64,000 bases of DNA from a phage, in the sequence record OZ346222.1; one strand, written 5' to 3'. Positions 4,054-29,610 of the stretch are shown piece by piece; the stretch's first letter is position 1; each line of letters opens with the position of its first letter. The notes below the pieces were generated by a model. It saw only the letters and a program-made list of their open reading frames with translations, was not told where the DNA came from and did not search any database. The translations under genes were made by a program, and so were the position numbers.

Positions 4054-6447
4054 ATGAGTATGTGGTCTTTCGATTTTGAGTCATCCGGTTTGCTGGAAGA
4101 CCCAGATCTTTATTATCACTGCGGTCTGTTTAAAGAGCTGAATAAGAACCGTTTTATGCTGTTCCTTCCTCTAAATGACCGCACACACTACTCCGAGGAG
4201 GATATAGAAAAGGCTAAGAACTTCATTCTGTCAAAGAAAACTCTTTATAAAGATTTTGAAGTTCGCATAGCAGATTTTTCGGAGTTGGAAGGTTGGCTTA
4301 CAGGCAATTCTGACTGGTCACCAACAGCTTTGAACTGCCATAACTGCTACAGTTATGACTTTATGCTAATGGAAAGATTATCCGGTATTCATTTTGATAT
4401 GTTCCGTGATCCTAAATGCATGGGGACTATCAACGACCACCAGGTTAACCTGTTTGATACGTTGGCTATGAGCCGAATCTTGTGGCCTGATCGCCCTTTA
4501 CCAAAAGGTTGTCCGGACGCTGTATTCAACCCGGTTACTAAGAAAATGCAACCTGTTGGTCCTCACGGCCTTATGGCATGGGGCTACGCCCTTGGTAACC
4601 AGAAAGTTCAAATTGATGACTGGCGCGATCTTCCGTTGTGGAAGTATGTGGATCGTGTATTCGAGGACGTTATCATCCAGGAGCTGCTCTGGAAAGAGCT
4701 GGTAGCGGAATCAAAAGGTGTATTCTACGGCAAATCTGACATGCAGAACTTTATGTACGATCCAGCCAAAGAGAAGCCGAAAGGGTTCAAGAAGATCACC
4801 TGGAAGAACGCATTACGTCGAGGCATGCTGCAGCACTTCCTGATGGAGCTGCAGGCCCGTCAGGGTGTATACTTCGACATAGATGGAGCTATTGCTTTAC
4901 GTGACCGTTGCGATGCGTGGATGAAAGAAATCGCTGATCGTGTTGAACCACAACTACCTTTAAAAGAGCTGTCAATGTCTCAGCGGCCCAAGTTCCCTGA
5001 AAAGCCGTTTAACCAAGACGGGACAATCTCTAATAATGGTTGGAAATGGTTAAAAGATAAGCTTGGCTATCCTGTAGACATGAGTGCTTTAGAGTTCAAA
5101 GCCCCGCCTAAGCGAGCATTTACCTCTACAGGAGATGTCAGCAAGATGGGGATAAAATGGTGTGAAGAGATGGGCTGCAAAGACCCCGATAAGATGGCTG
5201 ATTTCTTGAGAGGCTATATTAAGGGCACCTCCACACCACAACCCTTACCTAAAGAGCTGATGGATCAGGCAATAAGTGATCTGCAGCAGAAGCGAATGCC
5301 TGACTGCAAGATACCTATGAAAATCAGCAATCAGGACGACATCAAGCGATACCTAATCAGTGCTGGTTGGCTCCCAACAATGTGGAGAACTAAAGATGTA
5401 ACTAAAGACAGCAAGAAGAAAGCTTTACCTGATGCAGATGTTGATGCACGAGTATATGCATATATGGACGAGCTTTTGGAGTCAGAGTATTGTGACCTAA
5501 TTATCAACTTCTGGAACAAAACTGATGCTAAGTTCCAGACAACCGTGCACAAGTTCCGAAGCTTTCCTAACTCCGAAAGGATTAAAAAGGAAGTATTCGG
5601 GAAAATACGTAGAAAAGCCAGGGCACTTATTACTTCTCCGCAACTGAAAGATACGTTTGGACACCTATGCCCAAATCTTGAAAAATTGAACGGAGAGATG
5701 GCTAAAGATATCGTCTTGTGGTTATCATTGCGAAACCGCAGATCGGTCCTTGATCCAATCAAGGAGGATAAGGTTGATACTGGTCTTCTTAATCACCCAC
5801 GTTTGAAGATTGACCATAAGCTTCCTGCTAAAAGCTCTGGATTAACAAACACTTCCAGACAGAAACACAGTATTTGTGCAAACATGCCTAAACCATCTCC
5901 TAAAGTGGTTATGGGTAAAGAGATGCGTAGTCTGTGGGGTGTTCCTCCGGGATACTTTGAGATCGGTATTGACGGGTCCAACTTAGAGCAGCTTATCGGG
6001 GCTTGGGGTGCCTTTGAGTTCGACAACGGCCTGTATTATGATGTTGTAAGTAACGGAGACGCACACCAAAACAATGCTGAGGCATATACAAAAGTGGCAG
6101 GCAGAGAGGTGTCCCGTAACGACGGTAAACCTATCACGTATGGGGTTATGTACGGGGCACAAAAAGATAAAGTTGCAGATATGTTGGACATCTCCCCAGA
6201 GTTGGGACAAAGGGTAATCGATGCACTCTGGGATGCCAACCCAGGTCTTAAGGGGCGCAAAGAGGATCTGGAGAAATTCTGGGAAGCAACAGGTAAGAAG
6301 TTTATCTACTCTTTTGATGGTCATGCTATCTGGACCCGATCTAAACACTCTTTACTTAATGCATACCAACAAAATGGCGGTGCATCGTTGTGTGACTTAG
6401 TTGGAATACTCATGCACCACCAGATGGTGAAGCGTGGGTGGTACGAT
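4054..6447 (+). CDS. DNA polymerase, family A (exon 1: 3'-5' exonuclease and polymerase motifs A and B)
   Basis: Exo I FDFESSG; motif A-like IDGSNLEQL; motif B-like KPITYGVMYGA; uninterrupted ORF runs to TAA at 6481-6483 but lacks the conserved C-terminal region; 3' boundary set at proposed 5' splice site. Confidence 0.75.
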
Positions 6448-26396: not shown

Positions 26397-26816
26397 ATGA
26401 ACATTAAATCTAATAATCCGGCATATAGCTTTGATAACGCTTTTTGTCACGGTCCGGCGGCGAAAGGATTCGAAATCGATGGTAAACTAATTATTGTCAA
26501 TGTTGACGGGGAAGAGGTTGCAGTATATCCGGTGGCAGACGTAAAAAGCCGTTTACAATGCCGCATGGATGTTACCGCCTATCAGCTTGATCCGGTCCGC
26601 ATAGTTGCCCTGGTCCTGGAAGAAGAAATTAAAGCCATGCACCATAGCAACAGATTTATTGGTGACGCGCAGGATAATATGAAAGTATGCCGCCATAAAG
26701 TTAATGAAGTGCTTAAAGAGTACGGCTATAAAGATCTTATGATCAAACGTGAGGAAAAATTCCGCTACCGTAACGACCTGGCAAATCGGATTTTTGAAAT
26801 ATACGAATCATTATAA
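26397..26816 (+). CDS. hypothetical protein (139 aa)
   Basis: RBS AAGAGG; last gene of rightward block. Confidence 0.5.
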   Translation: MNIKSNNPAYSFDNAFCHGPAAKGFEIDGKLIIVNVDGEEVAVYPVADVKSRLQCRMDVTAYQLDPVRIVALVLEEEIKAMHHSNRFIGDAQDNMKVCRHKVNEVLKEYGYKDLMIKREEKFRYRNDLANRIFEIYESL

Positions 26817-26834: not shown

Positions 26835-26860
26835 AAGGGGCTTAGGCCCCTTTCTTTTTG
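26835..26860 (+). terminator. rho-independent terminator
   Basis: AAGGGGC-TTAG-GCCCCTT hairpin followed by TCTTTTT. Confidence 0.6.
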
Positions 26861-27477
26861 TCTGCTCTTCCCCCTACCATAAACGGCCCTACCTGGCAAG
26901 TGGAATAATTGACGAGCCATCAATCCCACACACTGTACAAATATACATGTAAAATAACTATTGCATAACCTTTCATTGTGTGGTAGCGGTGCTATTTTTT
27001 ACCTGTTTTCCTTCCAAAATTGCACGTAATGCAGCTATTGCACAAAATTTAACCTGATGCACATCTCCAATATCCTGTCAACAACTAAAAATCTTTATAA
27101 GTCATACACTTACACAGCATCGAAAGCGTGTTCTACGCGAAAAATCGAGTATAACTATAGCCGCCAGATCTCAGAATTCACGTACGCACGCCATTCTATA
27201 GCCTGCAAAGTATTTATTCCAACCACAGAATAACGGAATAGTCAATACCTGAATAAAATAATTATTCGTTTAAACTGCATAACATAAATCAGCTCAGGTG
27301 TCAACATTTTTCGTAAACAGTCTGAAATTGTCACTGTGAGTTATCATAAACAGAGAAATCTTTAGTCGTATAATGTTTACTGTACGTTACTATACTGACT
27401 GGAATCATTAGATGACTAATAGAAAGATAAGAAATAATTAACAATACAATTATTTTACCTGTAACAATAAGACAACT

Positions 27478-27726
27478 ATGCAAACGAATGGCATGGCGCG
27501 ACGGAGTCGCGACATAATATAAAAGCAGTAACCATCACCCCCGTGATGGTTTGTCTGCAATCTATTAATCAGATCATAGTTGCCTTGTATTCAGTTAATC
27601 ATGACATAATAAGCAAGGCAACTATAGATCTGCTAATAGTTGCCCTGCTTTTATATTATGTCATATATTATTAACTTGTTAATTGTTAACTTGCTAATTG
27701 TTTTCATGCAAACGAATGTCATGGCT
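27478..27726. repeat. palindrome-rich module flanked by 21-bp direct repeats
   Basis: ATGCAAACGAATG(G/T)CATGGC at 27478 and 27706; perfect 18-bp inverted repeat GACATAATATAAAAGCAG / CTGCTTTTATATTATGTC (27510/27645); 12-bp inverted repeat CATAGTTGCCTTG / CAAGGCAACTATG; several short hairpins. Confidence 0.75.
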
Positions 27727-27734
27727 TATCCTAT

Positions 27735-27805
27735 CTGTGTAAACAGTTAAGGTGTAAACTATCCAGGCGTAAACAGTCTATGCGGGAACAATCTATACGT
27801 GAACA
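27735..27805. repeat. iteron-like array of GT(A/G)AACAG octamers
   Basis: GTAAACAG / GTAAACTA / GTAAACAG / GTGAACAG spaced 10-20 bp; further copies near 27313, 28078, 28790. Confidence 0.6.
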
Positions 27806-28357
27806 GTGAAACATGAAATAATAACAGTCGTTATTGTGTCGAAAGTGTATAAGGTGTCAGACAAGTTTTTCTCCTCTTTGTCAAGTGCTGCATGAAAAAT
27901 TTACAAGCTTGTATGGTAGCATTTTTGCGGCCCTGTTTACATTCAGCGATGTATGTATAATCCTTGTTGTGTGGGCGTTTAGACGTCTAGACGGTCAGAA
28001 GTCTGCAGGTTAATACCTAATCTATCGGCTGCTAACTATATCCCACACAAATAGTAAGAAATATAATTGTTATGTGCGTAAACAGTAACTCATGTTATCA
28101 ATCCCTGTATGTATCGCCAGTGGTGCGCATAATGGGTATTATGTTAAATTGCCCGTAATGATAACTATTCTCACAATGATAGGTATTCTCATTCACTCCC
28201 ACAAGATAGGTTGCAAATGTTGTGCCACTGTGTGAACGGCCTAACCTATTAATTTGCCTCACTGCCTCGATATTTGAGAATTGTTATAAGAATGAGAAGT
28301 ATTCCCATTTCGTCCGCCTGGCAGCACTCCAGTCGCTACCGCTCATGACAGGGCAGA

Positions 28358-29610
28358 ACTAGACCCTCTTCAGATATTTCTGGCTGACTCTTCAGGTCTG
28401 TGTGGGAAAAGCCAACCTCTCCGGCGGCGGGGAGGGGGTCAATTAAAAAAAATTACGTGGTGCATGAAGCGCTCTTCAGGTAAGGCATGTGTTATGGGAT
28501 GAAACCCTCTTCAGGCAATGATATTTGTGGGTGTGATATTTGCTGGAAAGCCAGATATGACGGGACTCCTGGCGGGGCAGGGGTAGTACAGACAGGGAAA
28601 ATATGGGGGATGTAGTTGGGGAAATTGATCAGACAGGTAGAGTATGGAATATGTTACAAGTATGTTAAATAGGGAGGATGAATATCTGCAGGATTTGTGT
28701 GTAAAATCAAAGACTTAAGTGGTGTTGTGGTATTTTCTATAAATAATTCAAGTTTAATAGGTAATATTTGTCTCTATCCACTTTGTGTGGTAAACAGATT
28801 CAGATGAAATTGGTTTACAAGTGTATACATAATATACAAATTAAAGATACAAGAAACCCCCCTCCCCCTTCGGCTACCATTCACCTTTTCCTCTGACTGG
28901 TACTTAAACACTTATTCAGACTCTTCAGGTTATCACCCATATATCATATGGCAGTGACTGGTGTCCTCCGGCCCCTCTTTCGTCACCCGTCCGCTTCGCC
29001 ATGCTAATGCCATAGCCAATGGTTCGGTTGTTCACTCTGTTCACTCAGGTGTATCTCCATACCCCTTCAAACCGAAGAGAACAGAAAACCCGAATTACTC
29101 GGTAAAAGAAAAGAGAAGAACTTAATTTTATCAGGATAGGCAAGAATGTCAAGGCATGACTGCTCACTAAACAAGCAAACAGTCATGTGTGGAAGGTAAG
29201 TGATTGTGGTGGTGGGAAATTTAGTTGAAAGATGTGTTATAGGTGCGCTTCCAGCACTTTGGCCGGGCAGCTAATTGTGTGTCAGTCCAGCGGTTCATCC
29301 TCTACTTCACTGAAATCAATGTTCATGGTCTCCTCCCAACCATCGATCTCAGCACAAGAGTGGAGTTCTTTAGGGTTTACTCCCAAAGCCTCAGCAACAG
29401 AGTCTATATTTAACACCTCTGGCAGGTATGATTCATCGAATTCAAGGTAAATCAGGCCACGAGTGTTGTCAGCTCCACCAAATATCTCTATCTTCATGAA
29501 ATCTCCTCTGGAAATGAGAGTGTGAACAGGGTTTTATACGTTCTAATGCACAGGAATTATACACGTTTGCCTCTTCAGGCCATGCTTTAGCATGAGGAAC
29601 CTGTGTGGGC
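28358..29610. repeat. dispersed CTCTTCAG(G) motifs, often followed by TGTGTGGG
   Basis: Six copies on the same strand (about 28358, 28388, 28465, 28505, 28918, 29567) within a G/T-rich non-coding stretch. Confidence 0.6.
29282..29497 (-). CDS. hypothetical acidic protein (71 aa)
   Basis: Last gene of leftward block; begins MKIEI like several paralogs. Confidence 0.45.
   Translation of the reverse strand: MKIEIFGGADNTRGLIYLEFDESYLPEVLNIDSVAEALGVNPKELHSCAEIDGWEETMNIDFSEVEDEPLD

What the first reader, a model, noticed from the sequence alone, without database searches (positions are those of the whole stretch)
27478..27726. Palindrome-dense 250-bp module flanked by 21-bp direct repeats
ATGCAAACGAATG(G/T)CATGGC occurs at 27478 and 27706. 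Between them lie a perfect 18-bp inverted repeat (GACATAATATAAAAGCAG ... CTGCTTTTATATTATGTC), a 12-bp inverted repeat (CATAGTTGCCTTG ... CAAGGCAACTATG) and short hairpins (GCGAC-GGA-GTCGC, CCATCAC-CCCC-GTGATGG). Direct repeats bracketing nested inverted repeats resemble an origin, a recombination site, a structured RNA, or a small non-autonomous mobile insertion.
Basis: seen in the sequence. Interest (0 to 1): 0.65.

Follow-up and report, generated by a model that had tools for sequence, protein, structure and literature searches.

The report
Conserved folded DNA element beside phage genome end
The palindrome-rich module is real: it is a single-copy, structure-conserved non-coding element about 200 bp inside the terminal repeat of rV5-like and phAPEC8-like coliphages, most likely acting in cis when replicated genomes are cut and packaged, though its function is untested.

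Summary
The 20-nt direct repeats (19/20), the perfect 18-bp inverted repeat, the 12-bp inverted repeat and both small hairpins are at the stated coordinates and far exceed chance. The window is an rV5-like (Vequintavirus) phage read through a collapsed concatemer junction. By homology to phages Gotham and HdK5, the 459-bp direct terminal repeat (DTR) is window 27860-28318. The module's outer stem ends 197 bp before it, inside a ~2.7-kb ORF-free gap. The core (27511-27662) folds as a three-way junction: outer stem, hairpin A, hairpin B. The same layout (direct repeat, small hairpin, outer stem enclosing two hairpins, AT-rich spacer, second direct repeat) recurs downstream of an orthologous gene in four lineages of two subfamilies with almost no sequence identity. 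Outer-stem pairs are 66/66 Watson-Crick, with 12-14 of 15 positions changed on both sides. In Phapecoctavirus Schickermooser it ends 208 bp before an exact 329-bp DTR. It is single-copy and absent from E. coli, so not mobile. FV3 lacks it through a deletion between the repeats, so it is dispensable. Best reading: a cis-acting structured element for junction processing or packaging. Origin, non-coding RNA and terminator remain rivals.

The parts
27469..27479 (-). Motif copy 'a' (AAGACAACTAT here; AAGGCAACTAT in 23 of 24 relatives). First of four GGCAACTAT / ATAGTTGCC copies in alternating orientation.
27478..27497 (+). Direct repeat copy 1 (ATGCAAACGAATGGCATGGC), immediately 5' of the structured core.
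   Evidence: 19 of 21 alignment columns invariant in 24 genomes. A homologous repeat is present in IMGVR31.
27495..27511 (.). GGCGCGAC box and small GC hairpin (GCGAC-GGA-GTCGC).
   Evidence: Hairpin dG -8.7 kcal/mol. 13 of 13 columns invariant. The GGCGCGAC box is also present 5' of the outer stem in IMGVR31 and the A7_1 group.
27511..27528 (.). Left arm of the outer stem (GACATAATATAAAAGCAG).
   Evidence: 18/18 complementary to 27645-27662. Invariant in 24 of 24 genomes. Co-varies with its partner across four lineages.
27530..27551 (.). Hairpin A (AACCATCAC-CCCC-GTGATGGTT), containing the CACCCC tract that is invariant in all lineages.
   Evidence: Compensatory replacement in IMGVR31 and between phAPEC8 and IMGVR33. 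CACCCC invariant.
27557..27645 (.). Hairpin B: a long imperfect palindrome holding motif copies b (27576-27587), c (27614-27625) and d (27636-27647) and two GATC sites. The c:d hairpin followed by TTTTATATTAT looks like a + strand terminator.
   Evidence: dG -37.4 kcal/mol, z -8.1; c:d hairpin -19.5 kcal/mol. Annotated as 'terminator' in the Murica and Alma records. A 33-nt insertion is tolerated in its apical loop in 3 genomes.
27645..27662 (.). Right arm of the outer stem (CTGCTTTTATATTATGTC). Sequence conservation stops abruptly after it.
27663..27705 (.). AT-rich hypervariable spacer (TTAAC-type short repeats). 19 of 24 relatives carry 4-48-nt insertions here, many of them palindromic.
   Evidence: 2 of 176 alignment columns invariant
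27706..27725 (+). Direct repeat copy 2 (ATGCAAACGAATGTCATGGC).
   Evidence: Present in 23 of 24 module-bearing genomes; missing in V18.
27732..27810 (+). Iteron-like array, GT(A/G)AAC(A/T)G units with a 15-16-nt period. Copy number ranges from 0 to 10 among relatives.
27811..27859 (.). Variable stretch up to the DTR boundary (TGTCA-type units in relatives). The boundary sequence GTGTCA|GACAAG is invariant.
27860..28318 (-). Direct terminal repeat (459 bp), present once because the window is a collapsed junction. The physical left end corresponds to 28318.
   Evidence: Gotham and HdK5 DTRs map here at 96-97 % identity. DTRs reported in PMC7471380 and PMC6563267. Several records start or end exactly at 27860. 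Inferred by homology for this particular phage.
28330..28520 (.). Indel-rich zone with CTCTTCAG repeats on the other flank of the DTR.

Best explanation
The module is a cis-acting, structure-forming non-coding element of the concatemer junction in phages with short direct terminal repeats (the rV5-like and phAPEC8-like groups). It lies on one fixed side of the terminal repeat, about 200 bp inside the unique sequence. Its core is a three-way junction (outer stem, hairpin A, hairpin B) bracketed by lineage-specific direct repeats, followed by an AT-rich spacer and short-repeat arrays that run up to the cut site. Proposed mechanism (inferred, not shown): when replicated concatemers are processed, this region becomes single-stranded or is extruded, and the folded DNA serves as a recognition or priming structure for the terminase and replication machinery that cuts at the DTR boundaries and duplicates the repeat. 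The flanking direct repeats and repeat arrays would be protein-binding sites. Shown here: its position relative to the DTR in two subfamilies; conservation of the fold by compensatory change; single copy; dispensability in one isolate. Inferred: that it acts as DNA, and that it acts in packaging or DTR duplication. Loss of a DTR-duplication aid would be expected to reduce yield rather than kill, because without duplication only alternate genomes of a concatemer can be packaged. That would fit strong conservation alongside a viable deletion in FV3.
For: (1) Position. The DTR maps to 27860-28318, and the outer stem ends 197 bp before it. In Phapecoctavirus Schickermooser the homologous stem ends 208 bp before an exact 329-bp DTR. 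The order gene, then module, then DTR is the same in both. (2) Fold conservation. In each of four lineages the longest perfect spaced inverted repeat downstream of the orthologous gene lies 292-711 bp after the gene's stop (about 580-711 bp in all but LTH01). Arms are 15-18 bp, against a maximum of 11-14 in shuffles. Pairs are 66/66 Watson-Crick, and 12-14 of 15 positions carry at least two pair types. Hairpin A and the 5' hairpin show double compensatory changes. (3) The junction sequence is otherwise not alignable between groups. (4) Within Vequintavirus the core is essentially invariant while the adjoining 200 bp up to the boundary is hypervariable. Both DTR flanks are indel-rich repeat zones, as reported for T7-like phages (PMC5923468) and seen in T7 itself. 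(5) In T7-type phages the packaging-specificity sequences lie near the termini (PMC3276506), the TR must be duplicated, and a hairpin form of TR-containing DNA has been seen (PMC4281155). (6) Strict Watson-Crick outer stems, with no G.T in 66 pairs, and the lack of a promoter/terminator pattern recurring across lineages favour a DNA role over an RNA gene. (7) No Rfam family matches.
Against: There is no experimental link to packaging. FV3 lacks the whole core and V18 lacks DR2 and the iterons, so no single part is essential, unless those assemblies are wrong. A three-way junction cannot easily extrude from duplex DNA, so a source of single strands has to be assumed. T7's own junction has only short imperfect inverted repeats, so the T7 precedent is loose. 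Within Vequintavirus some stem positions tolerate mismatches (27570/27632 is C.T in 9 of 24). The DTR position in this particular phage is inferred by homology. The DTR has been checked in only two of the four lineages.
Confidence: 0.4

Rival explanations
1. An origin of replication, or an auxiliary origin. The iteron-like array, the AT-rich unwinding stretch and the adjacent palindromes would form an initiation region next to the genome end, used by the phage's T7-like primase-helicase and Pol A-type polymerase.
For: A 15-16-nt-period iteron array (27732-27810), an AT-rich spacer (27663-27705) and palindromes lie side by side. An AT-rich stretch follows the right arm in every lineage. The cumulative GC-skew maximum falls here. 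No origin is known for rV5. Dispensability fits phages that have secondary origins (own knowledge of T7 and T4).
Against: The skew switch coincides with the switch of coding strand, as the rV5 authors noted. The iterons and AT-rich stretch are the least conserved parts, with 0-10 copies and full absence in V18, while the conserved part is the fold. There are no DnaA boxes. No initiator gene has been linked to it, and the adjacent conserved gene has no recognisable domain.
Confidence: 0.2
2. A gene for a structured non-coding RNA of about 130-280 nt, transcribed from one strand and acting in trans or as a regulatory leader.
For: Compensatory base-pair changes are the classical signature of structured RNA. 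Folding z-scores are about -10. In all four lineages the strand opposite the anchor gene folds 1-6 kcal/mol better, because G.T wobbles there read as A.C on the other strand. The four alternating motif copies allow attenuator-like alternative pairings (a:b, b:c, c:d), and the c:d hairpin plus U-run looks like a terminator. A dispensable but conserved element fits an accessory RNA.
Against: No Rfam match. The candidate promoters are weak or not conserved: the + strand -10 is CATAAT in 11 of 12 genomes, and the - strand -35 is separated by insertions in 19 of 24. No promoter/terminator arrangement recurs in Phapecoctavirus or IMGVR31. The U-run after the right arm is absent in other lineages. 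The outer stems contain no G.U pair at all. I found no paper reporting transcriptome data for a Vequintavirus in the searchable library: seven papers hold both words, but I read only one of them, and for other terms.
Confidence: 0.2
3. A bidirectional transcription terminator or insulator that stops the two converging gene blocks from transcribing into the junction. The A-rich and T-rich outer arms would supply U-runs on both strands.
For: Terminator-like hairpins sit on both strands, each followed by the T-rich arm. Murica and Alma annotate a terminator here. The rV5 authors expected but did not find bidirectional terminators in this gap. Dispensability would be expected, because a strong terminator already follows the last gene (26835-26852).
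Against: It does not explain the perfect 15-18-bp complementarity of the arms including their GC-rich parts, the flanking direct repeats, or near-invariance. In IMGVR31 the U-rich part is 7-8 nt from any hairpin. In phAPEC8 the genes after the gap run in the same direction, so there is no convergence to insulate. The fixed distance to the DTR is unexplained.
Confidence: 0.1
4. A small non-autonomous mobile element (MITE-like) that inserted with a 20-bp target-site duplication; FV3 would preserve the empty site.
For: FV3 has exactly one repeat copy and lacks everything between the two.
Against: There is one copy per genome in about 120 genomes and none in 5,426 E. coli genomes. The only plasmid hit is a phage-sized record. 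There are no terminal inverted repeats at the element's ends. A 20-bp duplication is outside the usual range (own knowledge). FV3's flanks are 97 % identical to module-bearing phages, and SYGMH1 of the same species has the module. The element is at an orthologous position in four lineages, each with diverged repeats of its own. DR spacing varies from 198 to 339 bp.
Confidence: 0.02

Closest known systems
T7/T3 concatemer junction (terminal repeat with flanking short-repeat arrays, packaging signals near the ends, and a hairpin intermediate proposed for repeat duplication)
   Same: Short DTR (160 bp in T7; 459 and 329 bp here). Non-coding junction. Arrays of short direct repeats and high variability immediately flanking the repeat (PMC5923468). 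Cis signals for packaging lie close to the termini (PMC3276506). The repeat must be duplicated, and a hairpin form of TR-containing DNA has been reported (PMC4281155).
   Different: No sequence similarity. T7's inverted repeats upstream of the TR are only 10-12 nt and imperfect, against a 15-18-bp perfect outer stem enclosing two hairpins here. T7 couples processing to its own RNA polymerase, and these phages encode none (PMC3606486). These are myoviruses of 135-150 kb.
Phage T5 Repeat Region 3 / injection stop signal (iss)
   Same: A large untranslated, repeat-, inverted-repeat- and palindrome-dense region that is more conserved than neighbouring genes. It straddles the inner boundary of the terminal repeat, includes an array of nine short direct repeats, and its function is still unproven (bioRxiv 10.1101/866236).
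   Different: T5's repeat is about 10 kb and the region lies mostly inside it. The proposed T5 mechanism rests on eight DnaA boxes, and there are none here. Two-step DNA transfer is not known for rV5-like phages. No sequence similarity.
Lambda cosB and other small-terminase binding regions (SPP1 pacL/pacR, P1 pac)
   Same: Several copies of a 9-16-bp motif in direct and inverted orientation within a few hundred bp of the cut site, on the DNA that stays with the packaged genome (own knowledge).
   Different: Those sites are conserved as sequence motifs for protein binding, not as base-paired stems kept by compensatory change. The motifs here lie 210-390 bp from the boundary. No binding protein has been identified.
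Lambda-type origin (iterons + AT-rich region + palindrome)
   Same: Iteron-like array, AT-rich stretch and palindrome in a row.
   Different: The iteron array is the least conserved part and is missing in V18. No initiator gene surrounds or adjoins it. The conserved feature is a three-way fold.

Membership tests
T7-type concatemer-junction cis elements | Lies in the non-coding junction within a few hundred bp of a short direct terminal repeat | tested here: met
   The outer stem ends 197 bp before the DTR boundary (27860), and 208 bp before it in Schickermooser.
T7-type concatemer-junction cis elements | Arrays of short direct repeats and elevated variability flanking the repeat | tested here: met
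   GTAAACAG array at 27732-27810 and CTCTTCAG array at 28366-28520. Both flanks are indel-rich. T7 shows ACCTAAAG-type arrays.
T7-type concatemer-junction cis elements | Required in cis for packaging or processing of concatemers | not testable with these tools
   Needs plasmid-transduction or deletion experiments. FV3 shows the core is not absolutely required.
T7-type concatemer-junction cis elements | Sequence or structural homology to the T7/T3 junction | tested here: not met
   T7 inverted repeats upstream of the TR are 10-12 nt at 83-91 % complementarity; there is no three-way junction.
T5 injection stop signal region | Ordered set of DnaA boxes within the inverted repeats | tested here: not met
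   No TTWTNCACA in 26850-28690. Window-wide there are 7 matches against 8.3 expected.
T5 injection stop signal region | Conserved untranslated repeat/palindrome cluster at the inner edge of the terminal repeat | tested here: met
Structured non-coding RNA gene | Helices maintained by compensatory substitutions | tested here: met
   66/66 Watson-Crick pairs in the outer stems of four lineages. 12-14 of 15 positions co-vary. Hairpin A and the 5' hairpin also co-vary. Within Vequintavirus alone there are none.
Structured non-coding RNA gene | Own promoter and terminator, conserved across relatives; a detectable transcript | tested here: inconclusive
   Only weak or unconserved sigma-70-like sites. 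No recurring pattern across lineages. I found no paper reporting transcriptome data for a Vequintavirus: seven papers hold both search words, but only one was opened, and for other terms.
Structured non-coding RNA gene | Match to a described RNA family | tested here: not met
   Rfam 15 at E<=1: nothing in the window region. In three other lineages there is one sub-threshold chance hit, which lies elsewhere.
Iteron-type replication origin | Conserved iteron array plus an AT-rich unwinding element and a cognate initiator | tested here: inconclusive
   The array and the AT-rich stretch exist but are hypervariable or absent in relatives. No initiator has been identified.
MITE / small non-autonomous transposon | Multiple copies, terminal inverted repeats at the element ends, short target-site duplication, patchy distribution | tested here: not met
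   Single copy. Absent from hosts. Orthologous position in four lineages. The only absence is a nested deletion.
Intrinsic (bidirectional) terminator | GC-rich hairpin directly followed by a U-run on each strand, conserved among relatives | tested here: inconclusive
   Met in Vequintavirus (+ strand -19.5 kcal/mol with UUUUAUAUUAU; - strand weaker). Not met in IMGVR31, the A7_1 group or Phapecoctavirus.

The most novel reading that the evidence does not exclude
The three-way DNA fold is the dedicated device by which a large group of myoviruses with short terminal repeats (rV5-like and phAPEC8-like, at least 250 sequenced genomes) duplicates the terminal repeat or starts packaging. One strand of the junction folds, is recognised or used as a primer, and this lets every genome of a concatemer, rather than every second one, be packaged. 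That would be a structure-specific rather than sequence-specific packaging signal, evolving by compensatory change, which has not been described for tailed phages.
Probability: 0.2. Interest if true: 0.75.

Novelty: new variant of a known kind. Interest (0 to 1): 0.55.

Why it matters
rV5-like and phAPEC8-like phages are among the E. coli phages most often isolated for therapy and biocontrol, yet their origin, packaging signal and the role of their large non-coding gap are unknown. The rV5 genome paper marked the gap only as 'non-coding' and treated the genome as circularly permuted. Placing a structure-conserved element at a fixed distance from the terminal repeat in two subfamilies gives a concrete candidate for the cis signal of junction processing. 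That makes an open question directly testable by deletion, compensatory arm mutants and junction-plasmid transduction. It would help with engineering: rebooting genomes, building transducing phagemids, and choosing safe insertion sites. It also gives a practical marker for orienting and opening genome records at the true physical ends. How phages other than T7 duplicate their terminal repeats is poorly understood, and a fold kept by covariation would be a new kind of evidence on that point.

Tried and rejected
- **Small protein:** the 43-codon ORF 27543-27674 stays open through a 33-nt insertion. However, 6 of its 8 substitutions are non-synonymous by my manual reading of alignment A1, it has no ribosome-binding site, and its C-terminus is variable. 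The two 14-codon ORFs that start in the direct repeats are not conserved downstream of DR2. Rejected.
- **Known RNA families and tRNA-like genes:** none found.
- **Host or plasmid origin:** none. The one 'plasmid' hit is a phage-sized record.
- **More copies in public data:** IMG/VR and metagenome scans with the repeat returned only Vequintavirus contigs, plus one chance 20-mer in an unrelated GC-rich gene.
- **Covariation within Vequintavirus:** none. The core is too invariant, and the few stem substitutions break pairs. The signal appeared only when other genera were reached through the neighbouring gene.
- **Direct DNA similarity search to other genera:** nothing.
- **MAFFT alignment across lineages:** could not keep the arms in register, so pairs were counted in register by script.
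- **DnaA boxes, as in T5:** absent.
- **Sigma-70 promoters:** weak or not conserved.
- **Function of the adjacent conserved gene:** no Pfam domain, and a PHROG of unknown function.
- **Transcriptome data for these phages:** none found in the searchable library, though of the seven papers holding both search words only one was opened.
- **One literature search failed** because a term was too short.
Full report
**1. The observation**

- The direct repeat ATGCAAACGAATG(G/T)CATGGC is at 27478-27497 and 27706-27725. It is 20 nt with one mismatch. It has no other match in the 64-kb window at up to three mismatches (0.03 expected).
- The 18-bp inverted repeat GACATAATATAAAAGCAG / CTGCTTTTATATTATGTC (27511-27528 / 27645-27662) is perfect.
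- It is the only spaced inverted repeat with a 12-nt exact seed within 250 bp anywhere in the window.
- The inner inverted repeat is 12/12 (27576-27587 / 27614-27625). Both small hairpins are present.
- Folding the 249 nt gives z-scores of -10.2 and -10.9 (RNA, the two strands) and -8.8 (DNA).
- ATAGTTGCC occurs four times in alternating orientation (27471-79 degenerate, 27576-84, 27617-25, 27636-44). A 15-nt-period GTAAACAG array follows at 27732-27810.

**2. Where it is**

The window is an rV5-like coliphage of the genus Vequintavirus; the closest record is phage isim at 96 %.

- The module lies in a ~2.7-kb stretch without credible genes. On the left, + strand genes end at 26816 with a strong terminator at 26835-52. 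On the right are - strand genes.
- The rV5 genome paper shows this stretch only as a 'non-coding' box. It treated the genome as circularly permuted, found no origin, and looked in vain for bidirectional terminators here (PMC3606486).
- Later work reports short direct terminal repeats (DTRs): 458 bp in HdK5 and EdH4 (PMC6563267), and 459 bp with a fixed packaging start in Gotham (PMC7471380).
- I fetched both ends of Gotham and HdK5. Their first and last 459 bp are identical, and they map to window 28318 down to 27860 at 96-97 % identity.
- Several independent records begin or end exactly at the position equivalent to 27860.

The window therefore reads through a collapsed concatemer junction. 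In order: left-end genes, about 1 kb of non-coding DNA including the module, the iteron-like array, the DTR (27860-28318), about 1 kb of right-end non-coding DNA, then right-end genes. The outer stem of the module ends 197 bp before the DTR boundary. For this particular phage the boundary is inferred by homology.

**3. Variation within Vequintavirus**

About 120 records carry the module, one copy each. I aligned 24 versions.

- The stretch from upstream of DR1 to the end of the right outer arm (27663) is almost invariant. Both 18-bp arms and the GC hairpin are invariant.
- Conservation ends abruptly at 27663. The 200 bp from there to the DTR boundary is hypervariable, with 2-6 invariant columns out of about 500.
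- In that variable zone the iteron count ranges from 0 to 10, and 19 of 24 genomes carry insertions of 4-48 nt, many of them palindromic. DR1-DR2 spacing therefore ranges from 198 to 339 bp.
- The 'module flanked by repeats' is thus not a fixed unit. The constant unit is DR1 plus the fold.
- The other flank of the DTR (28330-28480) is equally indel-rich and carries CTCTTCAG repeats.
- Inside the fold no pair shows a compensatory change, and a few substitutions break pairs (27570/27632 is C.T in 9 of 24). A 33-nt insertion sits in the apical loop of hairpin B.

FV3 alone lacks one repeat copy and everything between the repeats. Its flanks are 97 % identical to module-bearing phages, and SYGMH1, of the same species, has the module. 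This is a deletion between the direct repeats. V18 lacks DR2 and the iterons. No single part is therefore indispensable for a viable phage, if those assemblies are correct.

**4. Not mobile, not from the host, not a known RNA**

- The module has no match in 5,426 complete E. coli genomes.
- Its only plasmid match is a 137.6-kb record of phage size.
- Scans of viral and metagenome contigs returned only Vequintavirus contigs and one chance 20-mer.
- Rfam and tRNA searches found nothing.

**5. The decisive comparison**

The last gene before the gap (139 aa, 26397-26816; unknown function) has 85-92 % identical orthologues in other groups:

- the A7_1 / W70 / LTH01 group of Vequintavirinae;
- an uncultivated 140.6-kb contig (IMGVR31);
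- Phapecoctavirus (phAPEC8-like, subfamily Stephanstirmvirinae).

The DNA downstream of the gene is not alignable with the window. Yet in every lineage the best spaced inverted repeat in that DNA lies 292-711 bp after the gene's stop codon — about 580-711 bp in all but LTH01, where it is 292 bp.

| Lineage | Left arm | Perfect arm length |
|---|---|---|
| Vequintavirus | GACATAATATAAAAGCAG | 18 bp |
| IMGVR31 | GACATAATAACGCTGAG | 17 bp |
| A7_1 group | GACACTATAAAACGAG | 16 bp |
| Phapecoctavirus | GCTAATAATAAGCCA | 15 bp |

- Each arm length exceeds every dinucleotide shuffle, whose maximum is 11-14.
- All 66 outer-stem pairs are Watson-Crick, and 12-14 of 15 positions carry at least two different pair types.
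- In each lineage the stem encloses two hairpins, giving a three-way junction with DNA-parameter energies of -20 to -45 kcal/mol.
- Hairpin A is replaced with full compensation: AACCATCAC-CCCC-GTGATGGTT in the window against AATAACAC-CCCC-GTGTTATT in IMGVR31, and ATAACCATC...GATGGTTAT in phAPEC8 against ATAACTATC...GATAGTTAT in IMGVR33.
- A 5' hairpin also co-varies: CGCTATG/CATAGCG against CGCTACG/CGTAGCG.
- A CACCCC tract just inside the left arm is invariant. A GGCGCGAC box precedes the stem in three lineages.
- Each lineage has its own pair of direct repeats bracketing the fold. The IMGVR31 repeat is recognisably homologous to the window's.

The Phapecoctavirus version occurs in 133 records, including Justusliebigvirus. 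In Schickermooser, reported to have a 328-bp terminal repeat (PMC6563267), I find an exact 329-bp DTR. The outer stem ends 208 bp before it, against 197 bp in the window.

**6. What it most likely is**

Shown:

- a single-copy, vertically inherited non-coding element whose base-paired architecture is under selection;
- located at a fixed distance on one fixed side of the terminal repeat in two subfamilies;
- followed by rapidly evolving short-repeat arrays that reach the cut site.

Inferred: it acts in cis at the concatemer junction, in recognition by the packaging machinery and/or in duplication of the repeat.

The context resembles T7-type phages. In those:

- packaging specificity maps near the termini (PMC3276506);
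- phagemids need a pac site and the terminal repeat (PMC13236587);
- the repeat has to be duplicated, and a hairpin form of TR-containing DNA has been observed (PMC4281155);
- the regions next to both repeats are the most variable and hold 10-22-bp repeat arrays (PMC5923468).

I checked T7 itself. It has short ACCTAAAG-type repeats within 170 bp of the repeat, but only 10-12-nt imperfect inverted repeats. The resemblance is therefore one of place and context, not membership.

A role in repeat duplication would also reconcile strong conservation with the viable FV3 deletion. Without duplication, about half of the genomes in a concatemer could still be packaged (PMC5923468). That link is inference.

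Three points lean towards DNA rather than an RNA gene. The outer stems are strictly Watson-Crick. No promoter/terminator pattern recurs across lineages. The U-run after the right arm is missing outside Vequintavirus. One weak hint on strand: in all four lineages the strand opposite the anchor gene folds 1-6 kcal/mol better.

**7. Rivals**

- **Origin.** The row of iterons, AT-rich stretch and palindrome and the skew maximum fit. But the skew switch coincides with the coding-strand switch, the iterons are the least conserved part, and there are no DnaA boxes.
- **Non-coding RNA.** Covariation fits. The four alternating motif copies allow attenuator-like alternative pairings, with a credible + strand terminator (c:d hairpin, -19.5 kcal/mol). 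But no conserved expression signals or known family were found.
- **Bidirectional terminator.** Plausible as a side effect in Vequintavirus. It is not conserved elsewhere, and phAPEC8 has no convergent transcription here.
- **Mobile insertion.** Rejected (section 4).
- **T5 comparison.** The T5 'injection stop' region is the closest descriptive parallel: an untranslated, conserved repeat/palindrome cluster at the inner edge of the terminal repeat, of unproven function. Its proposed DnaA-box basis is not met here.

**8. Verdict**

I know of no description of this element. I did not run a literature search aimed at it; the sources I did read call the region non-coding (PMC3606486) or annotate a repeat_region or terminator there. 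It is a new variant of a known kind, namely terminus-adjacent cis elements of phages with terminal repeats. It is distinguished by a three-way fold kept by compensatory evolution across at least 250 genomes. Function is untested.

My confidence is about 0.4 for a role in junction processing or packaging, 0.2 each for an origin and for an RNA, and 0.1 for a terminator. Interest is 0.55.

Noticed in passing
window 28880-29160: A 250-bp stretch (28880-29130) is 94-100 % invariant in 11-12 Vequintavirus genomes. Next to it is a near-consensus sigma-70 promoter on the minus strand (TTGACA 29152-29147, 16 nt, TG-TAAAAT 29130-29125), invariant in 11 of 12 genomes and pointing towards the terminal repeat. 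A small hairpin plus T-run follows at 29102-29090. This recalls T7's promoter reading into the junction, but is untested.
   Followed up: partly
window 28330-28520: The other flank of the terminal repeat is an indel-rich zone with CTCTTCAG(G) repeats at 28366, 28388, 28472, 28505 and 28921. The A7_1 group has GTCTCTTCAG repeats in its own gap.
   Followed up: partly
window 27811-27865 and related loci: Just before the repeat boundary, relatives carry 2-5 copies of (G/A)TGTCA units. The boundary itself is GTGTCA|GACAAG and is invariant. GTGTC is a recognition sequence of T7-type primases (own knowledge), and these phages have a T7-like primase-helicase. Not tested.
   Followed up: no
L010 (FV3, NC_019517) 2040-2060; L025 (V18, NC_041937): FV3 lacks the 228 bp between the direct repeats. 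V18 lacks DR2 and the whole iteron array. These are natural deletion variants that could serve as ready-made mutants, if the assemblies are right.
   Followed up: partly
GenBank MG0656xx records (e.g. L021): 18-19 'Campylobacter phage' records, marked UNVERIFIED, are Vequintavirus or Phapecoctavirus genomes by sequence. The host label looks doubtful.
   Followed up: no
PLSDB CP057073.1, positions 6070-6321: A 137,565-bp 'plasmid' of E. coli carries the module at 90 % identity and has the size of a Vequintavirus genome.
   Followed up: no
window 26397-26816: The 139-aa gene just before the gap is 85-100 % conserved across two subfamilies and travels with the module. It has no Pfam domain and belongs to a PHROG of unknown function. 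GenBank annotations such as 'DNA translocase' or 'Rel homology domain' are not supported by these searches.
   Followed up: partly
literature on rV5 (PMC3606486) against window 27860-28318: The reference rV5 description calls the genome circularly permuted. Later isolates and the record ends show a 458-459-bp direct terminal repeat, so many Vequintavirus records are opened at arbitrary positions.
   Followed up: yes
all four lineages, just inside the left outer arm (window 27536-27541): A CACCCC tract is the only sequence inside the fold that is invariant in all lineages. It forms the loop of hairpin A in two of them. It could be a specific contact site.
   Followed up: no
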